Of a DNA stretch of 64,000 bases, positions 3,918 through 61,589 are shown piece by piece. The translations under genes and the position numbers were made by a program. The DNA is from Prevotella sp. GTDB lineage: Bacteria > Bacteroidota > Bacteroidia > Bacteroidales > Bacteroidaceae. The notes beneath the pieces were generated by a model. The model was not told where the DNA came from and searched no databases. It worked only from the letters and a program-made list of their open reading frames with translations. Each line of letters starts with the position of its first letter. Position 1 is the first letter of the stretch. Location: NCBI GenBank assembly GCA_017623655.1, contig JAGAON010000001.1, positions 44,233-108,232 on the forward strand, written 5' to 3'.

Positions 3918-4371
3918 AGAGCCCCCTCCCCGTCCCTCCCCGAGGGGAGGGCGAAAGTTACGTTTTTCGGTGATGTAAGACGGCCAGCAAGGCCAGCAAG
4001 CGTATAGTATAGGGCACCCAAAGGCGGCCTGAAAGGCCAATAAGCGTATAGCCCAGGGCAAGCGAAGCGGCACCCTGGGTTTCATGTATCGGCATTCGTT
4101 AACGCCCTGAAAGGGCAAAAGCGTGTGATTACAACTAACAAGATGTTTGATGTTCAACGCTTTTGCCCTTTCAGGGCGCAATGTATTTATGCTGTTTGTT
4201 TTCCCAGGGGTCGCTTCGCTTGCCCTGGGCTATACGCTTATTGGCCTTTCAGGCCGCCTTTGGATGCTATGAAAACCATAAAAAATAGTAGGTATTGGCC
4301 TGTCCCATCCTTTATAAACGGGAAACACTAACCTACGCCCTCCCCTCGGGGAGGGACGGGGAGGGGGCTCT
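3918..4371. repeat. Triple-nested inverted repeat (composite REP-like element)
   Basis: Perfect 36-bp IR at 3918-3953/4336-4371, near-perfect ~61-bp IR at 4018-4079/4203-4263, and perfect 22-bp IR at 4103-4124/4157-4178. Confidence 0.9.
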
Positions 4372-4403
4372 CGGGGGCATAGGGAGGGGGCTCTCGGGGA
4401 CTG

Positions 4404-5825: not shown

Positions 5826-5992
5826 TTCTACAACCCACAACCATTGACCGTCAACCGTGCCTATCTATCGCCCCTCAAACCTCTAACCCTCAACCTCCAA
5901 CCCACAACCTAAAACCATCAACCGTGCCTGTCTATCGCCCCTCAAACCTCCAACCAACAACCTCCAACCTAAAACCATTGACCATCAACCGT
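5826..5992. repeat. Heptamer (NNAACCY) array containing a 67-bp tandem duplication, anchored on the uvrC stop codon
   Basis: TCAACCGT at 5851, 5918 and 5985. TCAACCGTGCCTRTCTATCGCCCCTCAAACCTC occurs twice. Confidence 0.85.
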
Positions 5993-7874
5993 TCTCCTCC
6001 GTCCCTCCTTCGGTGAAATAATCGATGATTATCCGTCCCTTAGCATTGCCGAGAGCCTCCGTAATCTCATGCCGGCGGTCAGGCGACAGGGCTGCCTCCC
6101 TTATCCTTTTCACGCTCTTAAAGGCTTTCAGAAGGGTCTCCGCAGCCTTGGGGCCGATGCCTTTTATGTCGTTCAACTCGCTGTGCAGGGCGTGTTTTGA
6201 ACGCTTCTCACGGTGGAAGGTGATGGCGTAGCGGTGTACCTCGTCCTGCATCTGCGTCAGCAGGCGGAACAGTTCGCTTTCGGCTTTCAGCTGCACCGTC
6301 TGCGGAGGGAAGCCGAAGAGCAGTTCGTTGGTGCGGTGACGGTCATCTTTCGCCAGTCCGGCGATGGGGATTTGCAGCCCCAGCTCGTCTTCCACCACCT
6401 CGCGCACGATGTTCATCTGGCCTATGCCGCCGTCGGTTATGATGAGATCCGGCAAAGCCTGTTCGCCGTCCTTTCCATCGCCCTCATAGCCTGCCGCAAA
6501 GCGTCTGTAACGCCTTCCCACCACTTCCTTCATGCTGGCGTAGTCGTCGGGGCCGGTGACGGTCTTTATATTGTACCTGCGGTAGTCCTTTTTCGACGGT
6601 TTCATGCCTTTATAGACCACGCAGCCAGCCACGGCATCGGTGCCGGAGATGTTGGAGTTGTCAAACAGTTCTATCGTGTAGGGCAGTTTGTTGAGTTTCA
6701 GCTTCTCCTGCAACTCCTTCATCAGACGCGTGTGTTTCTGCTCAGGATTGAGCTTGTCGGCCTGTTTCAGACGGTCAAAGCGGTACTGCCGGCAGTTCAT
6801 CTGCGATAGCTCCAGCAGGTGGTATTTGTCGCCGCGCTGCGGCACGAAGAACGTTGTGTCGGCCATCTCCCAGTCTATCTCGAAGGGTACGATGGTCTCC
6901 TTGGCCTTGCTCTTGAACCTGCCGCGTATCTCTATGATGGCGGAGAGGAGCAGTTCGGCGTCCGTCTCGTCCAGTTTCCGCTTGTATTCGTAGGTGAACG
7001 ACTGGTTTATCGTGCCGTTCGTGACGTGCATATAGTTAATGAAAGCGTTGCTCTTGGCGTCGTCATCGTCTATGCAGAACACGTCAACATCGTTTATCGT
7101 GTGGCTCACCACCTCGCTCTTGGCGCAGAATTGCTCTATCAGCAGATATTGCCTTTTCAGTTTTTCCGCCTCTTCGAAGCGCAGGTTATCGGCCGCTTCC
7201 ATCATTTTGTCATACACCGTGCGGCTCAGAAGACGCGTGTTTCCCTTGAGAATCTCCCTCGCCATGGCGATGTTCTGCTGGTAATCCTCCCACGACTGAC
7301 ATCCTGTGCAGGGGGCATCGCAGTTCTTTATGTGGTATTCCAAACAGGGTTTGTACCGTCCCTCCCTGATGTTTTCGGCAGTCAGCGGCAGCCGGCAGGT
7401 GCGGGGCTTGTATAGCTTCCTTATGAGGTCGAGCACGGCGTACATCGCCCCGAGATTGGAGTAGGGACCATAGTACTGCCCGTACTTCTTGTTTATGTTC
7501 CTTGTCTTGAATATACGGGGGAAATATTCCCCGGTAATACATATCGAAGGATAGGTCTTTCCGTCTTTGAGCAGCACGTTATATCGCGGATTATATTTCT
7601 TTATCAGCGCATTTTCAAGCAGCAGGGCATCCTCCTCCGTGTTGACAACTGTGTATGTTATGTCGCAGATTTTGGACACTAACACCTTCGTCTTGAACCT
7701 ATCGACCTCCCGATGGAAATAAGACGATACACGCCTTTTCAGGTTCTTCGCCTTGCCTACGTATATAATTGTACCGTCGGCATCATAGTATTGGTAAGAA
7801 CCCGGCTTTTCCGGCATACTGAGCACTATGCTTTTGAGTCTCTCCAAGCGTTGTTCGTTGTCTTGTTTTGTCAT
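5985..7874 (-). CDS. uvrC: Excinuclease ABC subunit C
   Basis: GIY-YIG domain (IIYVGKAKNLKRRVSSYF), ELFDNSN, DDYASM, PDLIITDGG, QMQDEVHRYAI and HhH motif IKGIGPK. Confidence 0.97.
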   Translation of the reverse strand: MTKQDNEQRLERLKSIVLSMPEKPGSYQYYDADGTIIYVGKAKNLKRRVSSYFHREVDRFKTKVLVSKICDITYTVVNTEEDALLLENALIKKYNPRYNVLLKDGKTYPSICITGEYFPRIFKTRNINKKYGQYYGPYSNLGAMYAVLDLIRKLYKPRTCRLPLTAENIREGRYKPCLEYHIKNCDAPCTGCQSWEDYQQNIAMAREILKGNTRLLSRTVYDKMMEAADNLRFEEAEKLKRQYLLIEQFCAKSEVVSHTINDVDVFCIDDDDAKSNAFINYMHVTNGTINQSFTYEYKRKLDETDAELLLSAIIEIRGRFKSKAKETIVPFEIDWEMADTTFFVPQRGDKYHLLELSQMNCRQYRFDRLKQADKLNPEQKHTRLMKELQEKLKLNKLPYTIELFDNSNISGTDAVAGCVVYKGMKPSKKDYRRYNIKTVTGPDDYASMKEVVGRRYRRFAAGYEGDGKDGEQALPDLIITDGGIGQMNIVREVVEDELGLQIPIAGLAKDDRHRTNELLFGFPPQTVQLKAESELFRLLTQMQDEVHRYAITFHREKRSKHALHSELNDIKGIGPKAAETLLKAFKSVKRIREAALSPDRRHEITEALGNAKGRIIIDYFTEGGTEENG

Positions 7875-7994: not shown

Positions 7995-8084
7995 CTGTGC
8001 GGCGGCACGCTGTGTAGGGAGGTTTAGGGTCTCGTGTTGTTGGCTGTATGGTGAGGAAATGTAATACCCGCCATTACTATTGCA

Positions 8085-8116
8085 TCCCTCCCCTCGGGGA
8101 GGGTCGGGGAGGGGCG
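8085..8116. repeat. CCCTCCCC..GGGGAGGG REP-like hairpin just downstream of mnmG
   Basis: CCCTCCCCTCGGGGAGGGTCGGGGAGGGG, the same family as 4338-4371. Confidence 0.75.
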
Positions 8117-8117
8117 T

Positions 8118-10136
8118 TTATCGTCCCAAAAGAATTAGCAGCACGTTGATGTCTGACGGTGATACACCCGGAATGCGTGATGCTTGGGCAAGCGTTTCGG
8201 GTTCTATCGTTTTCAACTTTTGCCGTGCTTCCGTGGAAATGGCGGCGATATTCTCGTAGTCGAAGTGCCCTTTTATGCGGATATTCTCAAGGCGGTGCAT
8301 CTTTTCCGCCGTCACTTTCTCGCGTTCTATGTACCCCCTGTACTTTATCTCCACCTCGGCGGCTTCGGCAATTTCATCGTGACGGTTTGCGGGAGTGTGC
8401 AACTTTTCCCGTAAACGCGGCATGATTTCGCCGAGCCATTTGATGGATATGCCCGGACGCGCCACCAGTTCGCTGAGCTTGCAGCCCACGCTGAGCGGAG
8501 TGGTGCCGATGGATTCGAGGGCGGAGTTGACCTGACGGGGCTTTACGTTGGTGTCGTTGCAGAAGTTGATGATGCTCTCCACGTGCGCTGCCTTTTCCCT
8601 GTACCATTCAAGACGCTCCGTGGTTGCGAGACCGAATTTATGCGATTTCTCCGTGAGACGTGCGTCGGCATTGTCCTGACGGAGCAGTATCCGGTATTCA
8701 GCACGTGACGTGAACATCCGGTACGGCTCGTCAACGCCTTTTGTGACGAGGTCATCGATGAGCACGCCGATGTATGCCTCGTCTCTGTGCAGCGTGAAGA
8801 AGGAGGGCAGGGACGAACCGTTGTCGCCGCCGAGGTGCCCTGCAAAGAGTGCGGCGTTGACGCCCGCCACGAGTCCCTGACCCGCAGCCTCCTCGTAACC
8901 GGTCGTCCCGTTCACCTGTCCGGCGAAGAAAAGACCGTCGCATTTCTTTGACATCAGCGAGTGGGACAGTTGCGTCGGGTCGAAGAAGTCGTACTCTATG
9001 GCGTACCCCGGACGGTAGATGCGGACGTCGCGCAGTGCCGGTATCATCCTCAAAGCCTTCAGCTGCACGTCCATCGGCAGCGATGACGAGAAGCCGTTGA
9101 GGTACATCTCGTTCGTGTCCGCCCCCTCCGGCTCGAGGAAAAGCGGGTGATGGTCTTTGCCGGCAAACGTTACCAGCTTGGTTTCTATCGACGGACAGTA
9201 CCGCGGCCCGATGGATTGTATCTGTCCGTTGAACAGGGGCGAGTCATCCAGTCCGCTGCGTAACATATCGTGACAGGCCGGTGTCGTGTCGAAAGTCCAG
9301 CACGGCAGCAGCACCTTCCCGCCGTCTTCCGCCGGCCGTGTGGTGTTCATGAAGCTGAACATGGACGTGACGCTCTCGCCGTTCTGCACCTCCGCGTCCT
9401 CGAAATGCACCGACCTCTTGTCGATGCGCACCGGTGTTCCCGTCTTCATCCGGTCTGAGCGTATGCCCAGTGCGTTGATGCTCTCCGTCAGATGCAGCGC
9501 CGCCGGCTCGGCGCACCGTCCGCCCGGCACCATCTTCCTGCCGACGTGCATCAGCCCGTTGAGAAACGTTCCCGCCGTGATGACCACTGCCGGGGCGAGC
9601 AGTTCCACGCCCCATACGGTGCGGATGCCGGTGATGCGGGGGCGGGTTTGAGGTTGAAGGTTGTGGGTTGTGGGTTTAAGGTCAGAGGCATTGCCGGCAC
9701 CTTGTGACCTGCAACCTGTAACCTCAGACATGCAACCTGCTCCTTCCTTCTCCCAAATCAGTTCCTCCGCCTGATCCTGCCAGATGTCAAGGTTCGGCGT
9801 TTTGTCGAGAACCGCGCGCCATTGCCAGATGAATCTCTCCCTGTCGCACTGCGCTCTTGGCGACCACATGGCCGGCCCTTTCGACTTGTTGAGCATCCGG
9901 AACTGTATCGCCGTGGCGTCAGTGACCAGTCCCATGCCTCCTCCGAGCGCGTCAACCTCGCGCACTATCTGTCCTTTCGCAATCCCGCCGACTGCGGGGT
10001 TGCATGACATCTGCGCGATTTTGTTCATGTCCATTGTCACGAGGCACGTCCTTGCGCCGGTCATTGCGGCCGCATGAGCGGCCTCACATCCCGCGTGGCC
10101 GCCTCCGACCACAATGACATCGTATTTCATTTTCAT
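8118..10136 (-). CDS. mnmG: tRNA uridine-5-carboxymethylaminomethyl(34) synthesis enzyme MnmG (GidA), with a ~32-aa repeat-derived insertion
   Basis: YDVIVVGGGHAGCEAA, MSCNPAVGGIAKG, GPRYCPSIE, FFAGQVNGTTGYEEAAGQG and EPYRMFTSRAEYR motifs. Start taken at MKMKYD (10136). Confidence 0.97.
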   Translation of the reverse strand: MKMKYDVIVVGGGHAGCEAAHAAAMTGARTCLVTMDMNKIAQMSCNPAVGGIAKGQIVREVDALGGGMGLVTDATAIQFRMLNKSKGPAMWSPRAQCDRERFIWQWRAVLDKTPNLDIWQDQAEELIWEKEGAGCMSEVTGCRSQGAGNASDLKPTTHNLQPQTRPRITGIRTVWGVELLAPAVVITAGTFLNGLMHVGRKMVPGGRCAEPAALHLTESINALGIRSDRMKTGTPVRIDKRSVHFEDAEVQNGESVTSMFSFMNTTRPAEDGGKVLLPCWTFDTTPACHDMLRSGLDDSPLFNGQIQSIGPRYCPSIETKLVTFAGKDHHPLFLEPEGADTNEMYLNGFSSSLPMDVQLKALRMIPALRDVRIYRPGYAIEYDFFDPTQLSHSLMSKKCDGLFFAGQVNGTTGYEEAAGQGLVAGVNAALFAGHLGGDNGSSLPSFFTLHRDEAYIGVLIDDLVTKGVDEPYRMFTSRAEYRILLRQDNADARLTEKSHKFGLATTERLEWYREKAAHVESIINFCNDTNVKPRQVNSALESIGTTPLSVGCKLSELVARPGISIKWLGEIMPRLREKLHTPANRHDEIAEAAEVEIKYRGYIEREKVTAEKMHRLENIRIKGHFDYENIAAISTEARQKLKTIEPETLAQASRIPGVSPSDINVLLILLGR
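9644..9738. repeat. Inverted heptamer arrays (hairpin) inside mnmG, in frame
   Basis: gggtttg aggttga aggttgt gggttgt gggttta aggtcag ... gtgacct gcaacct gtaacct cagacat gcaacct. Confidence 0.85.
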
Positions 10137-10193
10137 AGCCGTAAAAGTGCAATGTGCAGTTGCTAAAACCGCACTGTGGTTAAAATTATTTTG

Positions 10194-10201
10194 CAAAAGT
10201 A
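10194..10201 (-). promoter_or_regulatory. -7 promoter element for mnmG
   Basis: TACTTTTG on the minus strand, upstream of the start codon. Confidence 0.55.
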
Positions 10202-11082: not shown

Positions 11083-13065
11083 ATGGCTAAGACATTAAAT
11101 TCACGCATACCAGAGGGACCTGTGGCCGAGAAATGGGCCAACTACAAGGCACACCAGCGTCTTGTCAACCCTAAGAACAAACTGAAGCTCGACGTCATCG
11201 TTGTAGGAACTGGTCTCGCCGGCGCCAGTGCGGCAGCCTCATTGGGCGAGATGGGCTTCAACGTACTCGACTTCTGCATACAGGACTCTCCGCGCCGTGC
11301 GCACTCCATCGCCGCGCAGGGCGGTATCAACGCCGCAAAGAACTACCAGAACGACGGCGACTCAGTATATCGTCTCTTCTACGACACGGTGAAAGGCGGC
11401 GACTATCGTGCCCGTGAGGCAAACGTATATCGCCTTGCCGAGGTGTCAAACAACATCATAGACCAGTGCGTTGCACAGGGCGTTCCCTTCGCACGCGAGT
11501 ACGGCGGCATGCTCGCCAACCGCTCTTTCGGCGGCGCACAGGTGTCACGTACCTTCTATGCCAAGGGCCAGACCGGCCAGCAGCTGCTGCTCGGAGCGTA
11601 CAGCTCGCTCTCACGCATGGTGGAGGCAGGCAAGGTGAAGCTCTACACCCGCTACGAGATGGAGGACGTGGTAATCGTTGACGGCCGCGCACGCGGCATC
11701 ATCGCCAAGAACCTCGTCACCGGAAAGCTGGAGCGTTTCACCGCCAACGCAGTGGTACTCGCCACCGGCGGCTACGGAAACACATACTTCCTCTCCACCA
11801 ACGCCATGGGATGCAACTGCACGGCAGCCGTACAGGCATACCGTAAGGGCGCCATGTTCGCCAACCCTTCATACGTACAGATACACCCGACGTGTATTCC
11901 CGTCCACGGCGACAACCAGTCCAAGCTCACCCTCATGTCAGAGTCCCTGCGTAACGACGGCCGCATCTGGGTGCCGAAGAAGCTGGAAGACGCCAAGGCA
12001 TTGCAGGCAGGCACGAAGCAGGGCTATGAGATACCGGAAGAAGACCGCGACTATTACCTTGAGCGCCGCTATCCGGCGTTCGGCAACCTCGTGCCGCGTG
12101 ACGTGGCAAGTCGCGCCGCCAAGGAGCGTTGTGACAAGGGCTTCGGCGTGAACAACACCGGCCTGGCCGTGTTCCTCGACTTCTCCGAGTCAATACAGCG
12201 TCTCGGCGTTGACGAGATACGCCAGCGTTACGGCAACCTCTTCGACATGTATGAGGAGATAACCGACGTCAACCCCGGCGAGCTCGCCAAGACCGTTGAC
12301 GGCGTTCAGTACTACCACCCGATGATGATCTTCCCCGCCATCCACTACACCATGGGCGGCCTGTGGGTCGATTACGAGTTGCAGACCACCGTTCCCGGCC
12401 TCTTCGCCATCGGCGAGTGCAACTTCTCCGACCACGGAGCCAACCGTCTCGGCGCGTCAGCCCTCATGCAGGGTCTTGCCGACGGCTACTTCGTGCTGCC
12501 CTACACCATACAGAACTACCTCGCCGACCAGGCCATCTGGCCGCGTCTCTCCACCGACCTGCCCGAGTTTGAGGAGGCAGAGAAGGCCGTGGAGAAAGAG
12601 GTTGACCGCCTGATGGGCATACAGGGCAAGCGCAGCGTCGATTCACTGCACAAGGAACTGGGCCACATCATGTGGGAGCACGTGGGCATGGGCCGCACCA
12701 AGGAAGGCCTTGAGGAAGGCCTGAAGATGCTGAAGAAGCTGCGTAAGGAGTTCAACGAGAACCTCTTTGTGCCCGGCACCAAGGAAGGTCTCAACGTAGA
12801 GCTTGACAAGGCCATCCACCTCCGCGACTTCATCGTCATGGGTGAGCTGATAGCATACGACGCCCTCCACCGTGAGGAGTCATGCGGCGGCCACTTCCGC
12901 GAGGAGCACCAGACCGAGGAAGGCGAGGCAAAGCGTGACGACCAAAACTTCTTCTACGTAGGATGCTGGGAATACCAGACCAACGACGAGACCGCTCCCG
13001 AGCTCTCCAAGGAACCTCTGGAATACGAGATAATAAAGGTTCAGACACGTAATTATAAGAATTAA
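11083..13065 (+). CDS. sdhA: Succinate dehydrogenase/fumarate reductase flavoprotein subunit
   Basis: [33 protein letters not shown] and [11 protein letters not shown] motifs. Confidence 0.97.
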
Positions 13066-13070
13066 CATTA

Positions 13071-13105
13071 CGGTTGGAGGTTATAGGTTTTAGGTTATAG
13101 GTCGG
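13071..13105 (+). repeat. Heptamer array, left arm (5 x RGGTTNN)
   Basis: cggttgg aggttat aggtttt aggttat aggtcgg. Confidence 0.85.
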
Positions 13106-13110
13106 AGCGT

Positions 13111-13479
13111 ATGTTAGGCCCTTATAAAAATCTTTTGGTTTGGCAGCAGGCTATCCTGTTTACAACAGAGATTTATAAACTGACACGCACCTTTCCAAGA
13201 GAAGAAATCTACGGACTGGTAAGCCAGATAAGAAGAGCCGCAGTGTCTATACCATCGAATATAGCCGAGGGATATGGACGTTCCACCAATACCGACCTTG
13301 TGCATTTTCTCTATATGGCGTTGGGTTCATCCAACGAAGTAGATACGCAACTGGTGATAGCCATGAATATAGGCTACATAACAAGAGAGCAATATAAAGC
13401 TATGGACACCATAAATGCGGAAATAAATGCCATGTTACGAGCCTTGATAAAAACACGGACAGGCTACGGACAGACCTGA
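13111..13479 (+). CDS. Four-helix-bundle protein (23S rRNA IVP / Avd-like family)
   Basis: YKNLLVWQ, FPREEIYGLVSQIRRAAVSIPSNIAEGYGR and FLYMALGSSNEVDTQL signature. It is visibly AT-richer than the flanking sdh genes. Confidence 0.93.
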   Translation: MLGPYKNLLVWQQAILFTTEIYKLTRTFPREEIYGLVSQIRRAAVSIPSNIAEGYGRSTNTDLVHFLYMALGSSNEVDTQLVIAMNIGYITREQYKAMDTINAEINAMLRALIKTRTGYGQT

Positions 13480-13506
13480 AACCCATAACCCACAACCTCA
13501 AAACCT
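13471..13506 (+). repeat. Heptamer array, right arm (5 x NNAACCY), overlapping the stop codon
   Basis: cagacct gaaaccc ataaccc acaacct caaaacct, approximately complementary to 13071-13105. Confidence 0.85.
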
Positions 13507-13515
13507 TAAAGAAAA

Positions 13516-14274
13516 ATGGCTAAAAATATAACAGTAACAGTAAAGTTCTGGAAGCAGAATGGCCCGAAGGACAAGGGACATTTTGACGAGCAGTTAATGA
13601 AGAACGTGCCCGACGACACCTCATTCCTTGAGATGCTCGACATGATGAACGAACAGCTCATCAACCAGGGCAAGGAACCATTCGTGTTCGACCACGACTG
13701 CCGCGAGGGCATCTGCGGCATGTGCTCACTCTACATCAACGGCACGCCGCACGGAAAGACCGAGCGCGGAGCCACCACGTGCCAGCTCTATATGCGTAAG
13801 TTCAACGACGGCGACGTGATAACCGTAGAGCCTTGGCGCTCAGCAGGTTTCCCCGTCATCAAGGACTGCATGGTCGATCGCTCCGCCTTCGACAAGATTA
13901 TACAGGCAGGCGGCTACACCTCCATCCGCACCGGACAGGCACAGGACGCCAATGCCATCCTCATCCCCAAGGAGAACGCCGACGAGGCCATGGACTGCGC
14001 CACCTGCATAGGCTGCGGCGCGTGCGTGGCAGCCTGCAAGAACGGCTCCGCCATGCTCTTCGTCAGCTCCAAGGTATCGCAGCTCGCGCTCCTGCCGCAG
14101 GGCCGTCCCGAGGCTGCCAAGCGCGCGAAAGCAATGATAGCGCGCATGGACGAGCTGGGATTCGGCAACTGCACCAACACACGCGCCTGCGAGGCCGTAT
14201 GTCCTAAGAACGAGTCCATCGCCAACATCGCACGCCTGAACCGCGAGTTCATCAAGGCGAAGCTGGCTGACTGA
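13516..14274 (+). CDS. sdhB: Succinate dehydrogenase/fumarate reductase iron-sulfur subunit
   Basis: DHDCREGICGMC, CIGCGAC and CTNTRACEAVCP cysteine clusters. Confidence 0.97.
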   Translation: MAKNITVTVKFWKQNGPKDKGHFDEQLMKNVPDDTSFLEMLDMMNEQLINQGKEPFVFDHDCREGICGMCSLYINGTPHGKTERGATTCQLYMRKFNDGDVITVEPWRSAGFPVIKDCMVDRSAFDKIIQAGGYTSIRTGQAQDANAILIPKENADEAMDCATCIGCGACVAACKNGSAMLFVSSKVSQLALLPQGRPEAAKRAKAMIARMDELGFGNCTNTRACEAVCPKNESIANIARLNREFIKAKLAD

Positions 14275-14325: not shown

Positions 14326-14387
14326 GCGGGTTGTAGGTTTAAGGCCTAAGGCCTTTGGCTGACAGGCCGGGCGGATGCCGCCCCGCT

Positions 14388-14475
14388 GCAATCAGCGCCT
14401 TGTCACCATACGAACGGCACCATATTACGGTGCAATCGGCACCTGTTCACGCTGTAATCGGCACCCTTTTGCGGG
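14388..14475. repeat. 22-bp tandem array
   Basis: Four units such as gcaatcggcacctgttcacgct and gtaatcggcacccttttgcggg. Confidence 0.7.
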
Positions 14476-25444: not shown

Positions 25445-25598
25445 ATACGGGAGTTATCGGGAGTTATACGGCTGCGCCGTAGGGAGTTATCGGGAGTTAA
25501 CGGACGGATGTGGGGACGCACTGTAAACAAATGTATCGCCCGTTACCTCCCTACGGCGCAGCCGTATGACTCCCGCTAACTCCCCTTAACTCCCGTAT
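25445..25598. repeat. Inverted decamer arrays (GGGAGTTATC / TAACTCCC) forming a long hairpin
   Basis: Left arm 25445-25503 is approximately complementary to right arm 25540-25598, including TACGGCTGCGCCGTAGGGAG. Confidence 0.85.
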
Positions 25599-43986: not shown

Positions 43987-44071
43987 AACAAACAGCACCT
44001 GTTTACAGTGTAATCAGCACCATTTCATCGTGCAATCAGCACCTGTTTGCCACGCAATCAGCACCAGATTA
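43987..44071. repeat. 22-bp tandem array
   Basis: Four units, e.g. gcaatcagcacctgtttgccac. Confidence 0.75.
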
Positions 44072-44132
44072 CGAACGCCCCATAAAAGATTGGAAAAATC
44101 AGGATTACGGGGCGATGACGCAGCCGGGAAAA

Positions 44133-61412: not shown

Positions 61413-61497
61413 CAATCAGGTGCAAATCACGGTGTAATCAGCACCTGATTACACTGCAATCTGCCGCTGATTACACCGCAATCGGCACCTGATTACG
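61413..61497. repeat. 22-bp tandem array
   Basis: gtaatcagcacctgattacact gcaatctgccgctgattacacc gcaatcggcacctgattac. Confidence 0.8.
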
Positions 61498-61589
61498 ACT
61501 GCATCTCCTTTGCTCTTGTCCGTCAGCAGGTTACACCGCAAAAATTATTTTATTCTATATTATTCATTAACAATTAAACTCACAAAACG

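What the first reader, a model, noticed from the sequence alone, without database searches (positions are those of the whole stretch)
13071..13506. Avd-like four-helix-bundle gene wrapped in complementary 7-mer arrays, interrupting sdhA-sdhB
Seen: an AT-rich 122-aa gene between sdhA and sdhB. It is preceded by 5 RGGTTNN units and followed by 5 approximately complementary NNAACCY units that include its stop codon. In the mRNA the arms could pair and loop the gene out, bringing the sdhA stop next to the sdhB start region. Established: this family (PF05635/TIGR02436) occurs in excised 23S rRNA intervening sequences and is related to Avd, the RNA-binding partner of DGR reverse transcriptases. Inference: this is a minimal mobile intervening-sequence system with no transposase. 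It has full (here), empty (mnmG) and half (uvrC end, sdhB end) forms, all within 9 kb.
Basis: partly seen in the sequence, partly recalled or inferred. Interest (0 to 1): 0.78.

Follow-up and report, generated by a model that had tools for sequence, protein, structure and literature searches.

The report
Swappable hairpin-armed gene cassette in sdh operon
A small gene of the family known from ribosomal-RNA "intervening sequences", boxed in by two mirror-image runs of a 7-base repeat, fills the gap between two respiration genes of a gut/rumen Prevotella; relatives show this gap empty, filled, decayed or refilled with other versions, so it is a replaceable selfish-looking insert, not part of the enzyme.

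Summary
A 122-aa PF05635/TIGR02436 gene (13111-13479) lies between sdhA and sdhB. Five GGTTNNN units precede it and five complementary units follow, the first holding its stop codon. Such arrays occur 15 times in the window, against 0.01 expected.

It is an insert, not a fixed operon gene.
- Of 115 same-genus genomes, 82 have a 0-51 nt gap, 20 carry a cassette and 13 hold scraps or other fillers.
- The cassettes have six arm types, each tied to one protein clade and unrelated to host relatedness. The nearest relative, with 94% identical flanks, has a 45%-identical protein and different arms.
- Contigs from three studies, with flanks over 99% identical to the window, replace the whole 450 nt with 207 other letters.
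- All 42 sdh-site cassettes found across Bacteroidales fit one clade of the protein family.

This genome's three such genes each match one of its three families of period-7 arrays, which include gene-less copies. One gene-less copy is an in-frame 35-aa insert in mnmG.

How it moves is unknown. I found no transposase, reverse transcriptase, target duplication or identical copies. RNA pairing of the arms is predicted. RNase III cutting and binding of the arms by the protein are inferred.

This scan has reported the same cassette class many times on other DNA, including at sdhA-sdhB. I found no paper describing it outside rRNA.

The parts
11083..13065 (+). sdhA/frdA flavoprotein gene; its stop TAA (13063-13065) is the left border of the replaceable segment
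   Evidence: Pfam FAD_binding_2 and Succ_DH_flav_C. Contigs of three studies leave the window sequence exactly after 13065.
13072..13106 (+). Left arm: five 7-nt units GGTTGGA GGTTATA GGTTTTA GGTTATA GGTCGGA. It carries TAG in all three frames (13084, 13091, 13098).
   Evidence: Sequence; pattern 15 observed vs 0.01 expected; pairs with the right arm in the MFE and centroid folds.
13111..13479 (+). Four-helix-bundle gene, 122 aa (PF05635 / TIGR02436 / NF008911)
   Evidence: PDB relatives are 2GSC (E 3e-23) and 2RLD, each with 5 chains in its entry. Same-type orthologues show pN/pS about 0.1.
13473..13507 (+). Right arm: GACCTGA AACCCAT AACCCAC AACCTCA AAACCTT, complementary in its cores to the left arm. 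The first unit contains the gene's stop codon.
   Evidence: Own-arm (cis) duplex energy -39.9 kcal/mol against a median of -24.5 with the arms of other cassettes.
13516..14274 (+). sdhB/frdB iron-sulfur subunit gene; its ATG is the right border of the replaceable segment
   Evidence: Pfam Fer2_3 and Fer4; contigs rejoin the window at 13516.
9645..9726 (.). Gene-less hairpin of the same GGTT family inside mnmG (8118-10196, minus strand): GGTT x6, a 19-nt loop, AACC x3. It is part of an in-frame 105-nt (35-aa) insert.
   Evidence: The insert is missing from G003, G016 and G132; G045 has a shorter, different loop there.
5832..5993 (.). Three one-sided AACC-sense arrays (28, 49 and 49 nt) within a 67-nt tandem duplication just past the uvrC stop; no partner arm
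14326..14354 (.). Doubtful remnant after sdhB: two GGTT units followed by two GGCC units
   Evidence: too short to tell from chance.

Best explanation
This is an intact member of a class of 'gene-in-a-hairpin' cassettes. A PF05635 four-helix-bundle gene is bracketed by convergent arrays of 7- or 8-nt units, the same build as the ORF-bearing intervening sequences of 23S rRNA, but here it sits in an mRNA operon.

Shown:
- It occupies the whole sdhA-sdhB gap as an optional, replaceable insert.
- It belongs to one clade of cassettes tied to this gap across Bacteroidales.
- Arm type, the left/right match of the arms and the protein clade change together.
- The protein is under purifying selection.
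- Within this genome each of the three such genes shares its repeat motif with a family of gene-less hairpins.

Inferred, how it works:
- The cassette has no promoter requirement. It lies in sense orientation between co-directional genes and is read through from the operon.
- In the transcript the arms pair into an interrupted stem of about 30 bp that loops the ORF out. As in rRNA IVS, this stem is a likely RNase III substrate, so the host operon tolerates the insert.
- The Avd-like protein, probably a pentamer, recognises the periodic core motif or inner box of its own arms. That would explain why arms and protein co-vary and why arrays rarely exceed five units.
- Turnover at this site most likely goes by recombination through the conserved sdhA and sdhB flanks.
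- Spread of gene-less copies to new sites needs a further, unknown step.
For: Insert status.
- Gap lengths in 115 congeners: 82 short, 20 cassettes, 13 other fillers or scraps. The scraps include arm remnants (G068, G064, G001) and a decayed gene between arms (G155).
- Filled/unfilled needs at least 13 changes on the flank tree, and cassette type needs 18.

Swapping.
- Flank identity and cassette identity are unrelated: Spearman 0.02 over 190 pairs and -0.08 over 1035 pairs.
- Identity drops from 88-98% to about 40-60% exactly at the stop and start codons.
- G000 vs G054: flank pS 0.25 against cassette pN 0.40.
- Contigs with 0-3 differences in the flanks join 13065 to 13516 with 207 other letters between, in three studies.

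Site-faithful clade. The 42 sdh-site proteins need 3 label changes on the tree against 31.6 in shuffles, and a single clade is not rejected (AU p 0.25).

Co-variation and selection.
- Six arm types match six protein clades.
- Own-arm duplex energy is median -39.8 kcal/mol against -22.6 for other cassettes' arms.
- Purifying selection: pN 0.06-0.14 at pS 0.54-0.75.

Generality. 51 of 78 nearest relatives are armed against 0 of 76 controls. In 37 of 48 resolved non-sdh loci both neighbours are co-directional with the gene.

Families within the genome.
- AACC, AACT and AATT are the only outlier period-7 cores, and they equal the arms of the three genes.
- Gene-less copies of the AATT family keep the same inner box, and the same holds in other genomes.

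RNA and protein.
- The fold pairs the arms, z -3.4.
- An RNase III gene is present.
- The Coxiella IVS has a 28-bp stem, tandem heptamers and RNase III cuts in mid-stem (PMC4990558).
- Both PDB relatives have 5 chains in their entries.
- Unit counts fall from 23 arrays with five units to 4 with six.
Against: - No RNA ends could be seen, because all runs laid were contigs.
- No binding data exist.
- Only 44% of the free positions are mirrored between arms in the gene-less hairpins, so many stems are weak. The mnmG hairpin folds no better than shuffles (z -1.5).
- GGTT-7 arrays are abundant in G132, whose only PF05635 gene has period-8 arms, and absent from G045, which has a close orthologue. 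The gene therefore neither suffices for nor clearly explains the arrays.
- Cassette dS is at least as high as flank dS even for same-type pairs, so there is no sign of recent transfer.
- No target-site duplication and no near-identical copies at two sites.
- In Coxiella the S23p protein was not detected in vivo (PMC4990558).
Confidence: 0.55

Rival explanations
1. Host accessory gene of the frd/sdh operon. The four-helix-bundle protein and its arms are an old, optional regulatory module of this operon, for example for RNA processing or subunit balance. It is inherited and exchanged like any allele by homologous recombination and often lost. It has no mobility of its own.
For: All sdh-site cassettes fit one clade across Bacteroidales. 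The protein is under purifying selection. There is no transposase, reverse transcriptase or target duplication. Synonymous sites give no evidence of recent transfer. Swaps are bounded by highly conserved coding flanks.
Against: About 70% of congeners have a bare gap, and others carry unrelated fillers: a small 2-TM ORF or GC-rich hairpins. The same build sits at unrelated operon junctions in many phyla and at two other sites in this genome. One of those, topA-aroK, is empty in about 19 sampled relatives. A member of the sdh clade sits between NifU-like and GGGtGRT genes in G055.
Confidence: 0.25
2. The arrays come first. Heptamer-array hairpins are an independent repeat class made by an unknown host or mobile process, and four-helix-bundle genes are merely passengers that insert into, or are captured within, hairpin loops.
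For: Arrays are all-or-none between close relatives, independent of gene content: G132 has 132 windows and one period-8 gene, while G003 and G045 have none. There are 22 gene-less pairs against one full copy in the GGTT family. rRNA IVSs replace hairpin tetraloops (PMC4990558).
Against: In the second family the inner box travels with the protein clade across genomes, while gene-less copies in each genome carry that box plus the genome's own array motif. That fits derivation from the full copy. At the sdh gap, empty sites show no pre-existing hairpin.
Confidence: 0.15
3. Remnant or part of a diversity-generating retroelement, with the protein acting as Avd.
For: There is a weak bAvd-like match of 26 bits. 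PF05635 is homologous to Avd (PMC10053308).
Against: The bAvd match is below its cut-off of 40 bits. No RVT_1 match was found anywhere in the assembly, which is 60% complete. The neighbours are uvrC, mnmG, sdhCAB and sensor kinases.
Confidence: 0.02

Closest known systems
ORF-bearing intervening sequences of 23S rRNA (Coxiella burnetii helix 45, Leptospira; S23p ORF; PMC4990558)
   Same: Same protein family. The ORF is enclosed by terminal inverted repeats that form a long stem. Tandem heptamers lie just upstream of the ORF, with copy number variable between strains. Distribution is sporadic and the elements are regarded as selfish.
   Different: This one sits in an mRNA operon gap, not in an rRNA helix. 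Both arms are periodic arrays. It belongs to genome-specific families that include gene-less copies. RNase III excision is shown for the IVS and only inferred here.
Inverted heptamer arrays of Xanthomonas (GGGAATC) and heptamer repeats of Nostoc and Beggiatoaceae (PMC4692102, PMC4679880)
   Same: Period-7 arrays of 2 to about 6 units or more, mostly intergenic between co-directional genes, often in convergent pairs (70-75 pairs per Xanthomonas genome). They are transcribed and have no known agent.
   Different: Those papers name no associated protein. My word searches found no mention of '23S', 'four-helix' or 'helix bundle' in the Beggiatoaceae paper, and none of 'four helix' or 'S23' in the Xanthomonas paper. 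Here each array family has a PF05635 gene in its midst.
REP/REPIN elements with their RAYT gene (from my own knowledge: Bertels and Rainey 2011; Nunvar 2010)
   Same: A single gene flanked by inverted copies of a short motif that is also dispersed as gene-less hairpins, in genome-specific families.
   Different: RAYT is a Y1 transposase, whereas the gene here is a 120-aa helical bundle with no catalytic motif. The one Y1_Tnp gene of this genome is flanked by a different, GC-rich repeat, and the array-rich G132 has none. Copies here are not near-identical: each has its own unit order.
MITEs with autonomous parent elements
   Same: Full and short gene-less forms share ends. The gene-less forms of the second family have a fixed size, 52-55 nt between the boxes.
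   Different: No transposase, no target-site duplication, and arms built of degenerate periodic units.
Avd of diversity-generating retroelements
   Same: Homologous four-helix bundle. Avd is pentameric and binds nucleic acid and the reverse transcriptase (from my own knowledge, plus PMC10053308 for the homology).
   Different: No reverse transcriptase, template repeat or variable repeat here. The bAvd model scores below its cut-off.

Membership tests
PF05635 / TIGR02436 four-helix-bundle protein | HMM score above the curated cut-off over the full domain | tested here: met
   134.2 bits against 33.8, positions 1-105 of 106; TIGR02436 129 bits against 24; NF008911 146.9 bits against 137.
PF05635 / TIGR02436 four-helix-bundle protein | Sequence relative with a solved four-helix-bundle structure | tested here: met
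   2GSC E 3.2e-23 and 2RLD E 2.2e-11, each entry with 5 chains. The oligomeric state of this protein was not tested.
ORF-bearing 23S rRNA intervening sequence | Located in a 23S rRNA helix (9, 25 or 45) | tested here: not met
   It lies between the sdhA stop and the sdhB start, and there is no Rfam match.
ORF-bearing 23S rRNA intervening sequence | Terminal inverted repeats forming a stem that encloses an S23p/PF05635 ORF | tested here: met
   The MFE and centroid structures pair 13072-13106 with 13473-13507.
ORF-bearing 23S rRNA intervening sequence | Tandem heptamers upstream of the ORF | tested here: met
   Five units here. Coxiella has GACAGAT x2-3 (PMC4990558).
ORF-bearing 23S rRNA intervening sequence | Excision from the transcript by RNase III | not testable with these tools
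   Only contigs were available. An RNase III gene is present.
Diversity-generating retroelement | Adjacent reverse transcriptase | tested here: not met
   No RVT_1 match in the assembly, which is 60% complete.
Diversity-generating retroelement | bAvd model above its cut-off | tested here: not met
   26 bits against 40.
MITE / DNA transposon | Target-site duplication | tested here: not met
   The borders are TAACATTA|CGGTT and CCTTAAAGAAAA|ATG, with no repeat. G054 shares the CATTA and AAGAAAA remnants of the spacer.
MITE / DNA transposon | Many near-identical copies | tested here: not met
   Each of the 22 hairpins has its own unit order.
REPIN-RAYT system | Y1 (RAYT) transposase as the flanked gene | tested here: not met
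   The flanked gene is PF05635. The genome's Y1_Tnp gene sits among other repeats, and G132 has none.
REPIN-RAYT system | The gene's flanking motif equals a dispersed family of gene-less hairpins in the same genome | tested here: met
   Three genes match three array families. The inner box is shared by full and gene-less copies.

The most novel reading that the evidence does not exclude
PF05635 cassettes and their gene-less hairpins are one widespread, undescribed class of mobile element that needs no transposase or reverse transcriptase of its own. A pentameric Avd-like protein would read periodic 7/8-nt arrays plus an inner box. The elements would multiply as genome-specific families, settle in operon junctions, hairpin loops of rRNA and even coding loops, and cycle through gain, decay, loss and replacement at favoured sites such as sdhA-sdhB. 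This would unite rRNA intervening sequences with the long-unexplained bacterial heptamer repeats.
Probability: 0.3. Interest if true: 0.85.

Novelty: new variant of a known kind. Interest (0 to 1): 0.62.

Why it matters
rRNA intervening sequences have been unexplained since 1990, and bacterial heptamer repeats (cyanobacteria, GGGAATC in Xanthomonas, TAACTGA in Beggiatoaceae) have no known agent. A very large protein family (PF05635) has no known function outside DGR Avd.

This locus ties the three together at a site that can be studied:
- The same gap is empty, filled with six cassette types, decayed or otherwise filled among closely related gut and rumen Prevotella.
- It is polymorphic within a species in public metagenomes.
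- It is occupied in records titled as cultured strains (Marseilla massiliensis An824, Bacteroides caecigallinarum ET12).

That makes RNA processing, protein-arm binding and gain/loss directly testable. If the protein reads periodic short motifs with clade-specific specificity, it would also be a new kind of programmable nucleic-acid binder.

Tried and rejected
- An exact-pattern scan of metagenome contigs for the sdhA end found nothing. A second scan, for the sdhB start, found one contig with a different, GC-rich hairpin filler.
- Read laying gave contigs only, so nothing can be said about RNA 5' or 3' ends or about expression level.
- A dS comparison meant to prove recent horizontal transfer failed. 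Cassette dS is saturated and at least as high as flank dS even for same-type pairs, and no near-identical cassettes sit in divergent flanks.
- A simple gene-to-array dependence is rejected. GGTT-7 arrays are abundant in G132 and G054 and absent from G003 and G045, regardless of PF05635 content. The type-V motif occurs outside the cassette in 3 of 5 type-V hosts, but also in two genomes that had no hit to the G000 protein query.
- RAYT as the mobiliser is rejected. DGR is rejected.
- No defence-system match in PADLOC and no Rfam family.
- Strict hairpin selection in the gene-less copies is rejected. Only 44% of free positions are mirrored, and the mnmG hairpin fold has z -1.5.
- Independent insertions of unrelated cassettes at the sdh gap are not supported, because a single clade is not rejected.
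- The 'Opitutae' relative L145 has Prevotella-like sdh genes (91% and 86% identity), so it is most likely a mis-binned contig.

Full report
WHAT IS THERE

The window is G000:C6:44233-108232 of a 1.93-Mb, 60%-complete Prevotella-like assembly. Between sdhA (11083-13065) and sdhB (13516-14274) lies a 122-aa ORF at 13111-13479, on the same strand.
- It matches PF05635 at E 2.5e-39, TIGR02436 at E 7.7e-38 and NF008911 above its cut-off. The bAvd model stays below its cut-off.
- Its solved relatives are 2GSC (E 3e-23) and 2RLD, both with five chains in their entries.
- It is preceded by GGTTGGA GGTTATA GGTTTTA GGTTATA GGTCGGA (13072-13106).
- It is followed by GACCTGA AACCCAT AACCCAC AACCTCA AAACCTT (13473-13507). 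The stop codon lies in the first of these units.
- The left arm puts TAG in all three frames. This follows from a 7-nt period.

These arrays are far beyond chance.
- The window has 15 four-unit matches against 0.01 expected.
- The genome has 84 arrays of at least three units against 1-4 in shuffles.
- Folded as RNA, the segment 13050-13530 pairs the two arms in both the minimum-energy and the centroid structures (z -3.4, none of 100 shuffles as good).

IT IS AN INSERT

I located the sdhA end and sdhB start on one contig in 115 genomes of the genus.
- 82 have a spacer of 0-51 nt. The close relative G003 has 3 nt.
- 20 have a PF05635 cassette filling the gap, 450-644 nt. One further cassette (G098) is cut by a contig end.
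- 13 have something else. These include arm scraps (G068 has a 61-nt hairpin of TTGACRAG units; G064, G001, G139 and G125 have single-arm or minimal remnants) and a decayed gene between arms (G155). Others carry a small two-helix membrane ORF (G144 at 207 nt, G150, G079) or GC-rich GGGGAGGG-type hairpins (G134, G092). A metagenome contig has that last filler too.
- On a tree of the flanks, the filled/unfilled state needs at least 13 changes, 9 of them forced by well-supported branches. Cassette type needs 18 changes.

CASSETTES ARE SWAPPED AT A FIXED SITE

The 20 cassettes have six arm types:

| Type | Unit | Period | Hosts |
|---|---|---|---|
| I | GGTTNNN | 7 | G000 only |
| II | GGTTATAC | 8 | G045, G121, G132, G160 |
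| III | GTTGTTTG | 8 | G054 |
| IV | TTGACRAG | 8 | G047, G066, G069, G100, G101, G107, G109, G119 |
| V | TAGTCGTT | 8 | G005, G016, G082, G131 |
| VI | AAGTTTTT | 8 | G073, G075 |

- Arm type coincides with protein clade.
- Each left arm fits its own right arm far better than the arms of other cassettes: median duplex energy -39.8 against -22.6 kcal/mol.
- Cassette similarity is unrelated to host similarity: Spearman 0.02 over 190 pairs and -0.08 over 1035 pairs.
- G054 has flanks 94% identical to G000 and an identical SdhB protein. At the same borders it carries a type-III cassette whose protein is 45% identical. The same pattern holds for G075/G109, G005/G107/G073 and G101/G121.
- Identity falls from 88-100% to about 40-60% exactly at the stop and start codons.
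- Same-type orthologues show pN/pS near 0.1, so the protein is kept by selection. Close-host, different-type pairs show pN of 0.30-0.40 at a flank pS of 0.25-0.36, which means replacement rather than fast divergence.
- In public runs of three different studies, contigs with 0-3 differences over 204-566 flank bases leave the window after 13065 and rejoin it at 13516, with 207 other letters between. An RNA-library contig of a fourth study bridges the ORF's 3' part, the right arm and the sdhB start. The cassette is therefore polymorphic within the species.

ONE OLD, SITE-FAITHFUL CLADE

Among the 80 nearest relatives in one-genome-per-species contigs, every Bacteroidales member with enough flank lies between sdhA and sdhB. 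The titles name Prevotella, Marseilla, Alloprevotella, Bacteroides, Phocaeicola, Parabacteroides and Paludibacter. There are two exceptions.
- On the protein tree the 42 sdh-site rows need 3 label changes against 31.6 in shuffles. A single clade is not rejected (AU p 0.25).
- One nested exception, in G055, sits between a NifU-like gene and a GGGtGRT gene, co-directional with both, and has GGTT-core arms. It is a likely move to another junction.
- Synonymous divergence gives no sign of recent transfer.
- The cautious reading is an old lineage of cassettes tied to this gap, with frequent loss, decay and allele exchange. Homologous recombination through the conserved flanks would suffice for that exchange.

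THE BUILD IS GENERAL

- 51 of 78 nearest relatives from about ten phyla have inverted periodic arms (period 7 or 8), against 0 of 76 shifted controls.
- In 37 of 48 resolved non-sdh loci both neighbours run the same way as the gene.

FAMILIES WITHIN THIS GENOME

G000 has three good PF05635 genes. All are armed, each with a different motif: GGTT, AGTT or AATT. Among all 4-mer cores and periods 6-10, the only outliers are period-7 arrays with cores AACC (63), AACT (16) and AATT/ATTA (15-20), which are the same three motifs.

GGTT family:
- It has 22 paired arrays, all in the order GGTT-array then AACC-array and none in the reverse order.
- One pair holds the gene. One is a 35-aa in-frame insert in mnmG, missing from G003, G016 and G132.

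Other two cassettes:
- The topA-aroK cassette interrupts two genes that lie 6-113 nt apart in about 19 sampled congeners.
- The third cassette lies at a changed gene order.

AATT family:
- Its cassette clade has a conserved inner box, ATGATTAC ... GTAATCAT, while the outer arrays differ by genome.
- Gene-less copies with the same box, 52-55 nt between the boxes in the other four genomes sampled (51-68 nt in G000) and mostly the host genome's own array motif occur in G000 and in four other genomes.
- This is the clearest full/gene-less relation.

WHAT DOES NOT FIT A SIMPLE STORY

- Four-unit GGTT-7 array windows number 73 in G000, 118 in G054 and 132 in G132. They number 0 in the close relatives G003 and G045 and in 113 of 151 genomes.
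- G132, 98% complete, has a single PF05635 gene with period-8 arms, and G045 has its orthologue.
- Only 44% of the free unit positions are mirrored between the arms of gene-less pairs.
- No reverse transcriptase was found.
- The single Y1 transposase gene sits among other, GC-rich repeats, and G132 has none.
- There is no target duplication.

What builds and spreads the arrays is unknown.

MECHANISM, WITH STATUS

- Shown: an optional insert; an old site-bound clade; co-variation of arms with the protein and of the two arms with each other; a selected ORF; sense orientation within operons; genome-specific families of full and gene-less copies; predicted arm pairing.
- Inferred: read-through expression; an RNase III-type cut in the stem, as shown for the Coxiella IVS (28-bp stem, heptamers, cuts in mid-stem; PMC4990558), with an rnc gene present here; binding of the periodic cores or inner box by a pentameric protein. 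The five-chain PDB relatives and the drop in unit counts after five (3:34, 4:20, 5:23, 6:4, 7:3) are weak hints for that.

COMPARISON WITH THE LITERATURE

- The ORF-bearing 23S IVS is the closest known thing. This cassette fails the defining location but meets the build.
- Inverted heptamer arrays were described in Xanthomonas (PMC4692102) and heptamer repeats in Beggiatoaceae, cyanobacteria and Bacteroidetes (PMC4679880). Neither paper links them to this protein family.
- Word searches for the family names returned nothing on such cassettes.
- Earlier agents of this scan have reported the class over a thousand times and the sdhA-sdhB site in at least 26 genomes. My results agree with theirs.

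Noticed in passing
G000:C6:147090-147542 (outside the window); also G000:C5:72590-72656, C8:96985-97054, C8:184246-184329: A second four-helix-bundle cassette lies between topA and aroK. It has a conserved inner box, ATGATTAC ... GTAATCAT, inside AATT-type heptamer arrays. Three gene-less copies carry the same box. In G096, G150, G165 and G118 the box is kept while the arrays differ by genome. The gene-less loops there are 52-55 nt and often start CC(A/T)TGCA(A/T)GCC.
   Followed up: partly
window 8080-8113, 3924-3942 and 4345-4400; L250:985-1140; sdh gaps of G134 and G092: A different, GC-rich small repeat (CCCTCCCC..GGGGAGGG hairpins) is scattered in the window. It fills the sdhA-sdhB gap in two congeners and in one metagenome contig. 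The gap therefore collects several kinds of small element.
   Followed up: partly
sdhA-sdhB gap of G144, G150 and G079 (loci L095, L096, L102): A 66-72-aa ORF with two predicted hydrophobic helices fills the gap (207-222 nt) instead of a cassette. G144's length equals the 207 letters seen in the alternative allele of this species, but I could not read that allele.
   Followed up: no
G000:C3:291500-293100: A single Y1_Tnp (RAYT-like) gene sits among GCCCTGAAAGGGC and CCCGGGG..CCCCGGG hairpins. Upstream of it is an array of a roughly 44-nt tandem repeat (AACGGTTTCACCCGTCCGTTGATAACGCAATGGATTCGCAATG...). Copies of the same hairpins sit nested in the loop of a GGTT hairpin at C9:42852-43232.
   Followed up: partly
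window 14415-14465, 43989-44072, 61436-61503: A 22-nt tandem repeat (CAATCAGCACCTGTTTACAGTG and variants) recurs at three places in the window.
   Followed up: no
window 25448-25503; genome-wide: Period-10 arrays with core AACT/GTTA (about 15 in the genome, unit like CGGGAGTTAT) are the only other outlier among short-period arrays.
   Followed up: no
L145 (record titled Opitutae bacterium UBA4654): This 3.6-kb contig has SdhA and SdhB ends 91% and 86% identical to this Prevotella, plus an sdh-site cassette. It is most likely a mis-binned Prevotella contig.
   Followed up: partly
G000:C3:277774-279674 (locus L002): The third cassette (AGTTATN arms) lies between an SDR oxidoreductase gene and uxuA. 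In G002, G004 and G019 the two flanking genes stand in the opposite order, 740-940 nt apart, so the cassette marks a rearranged junction.
   Followed up: partly
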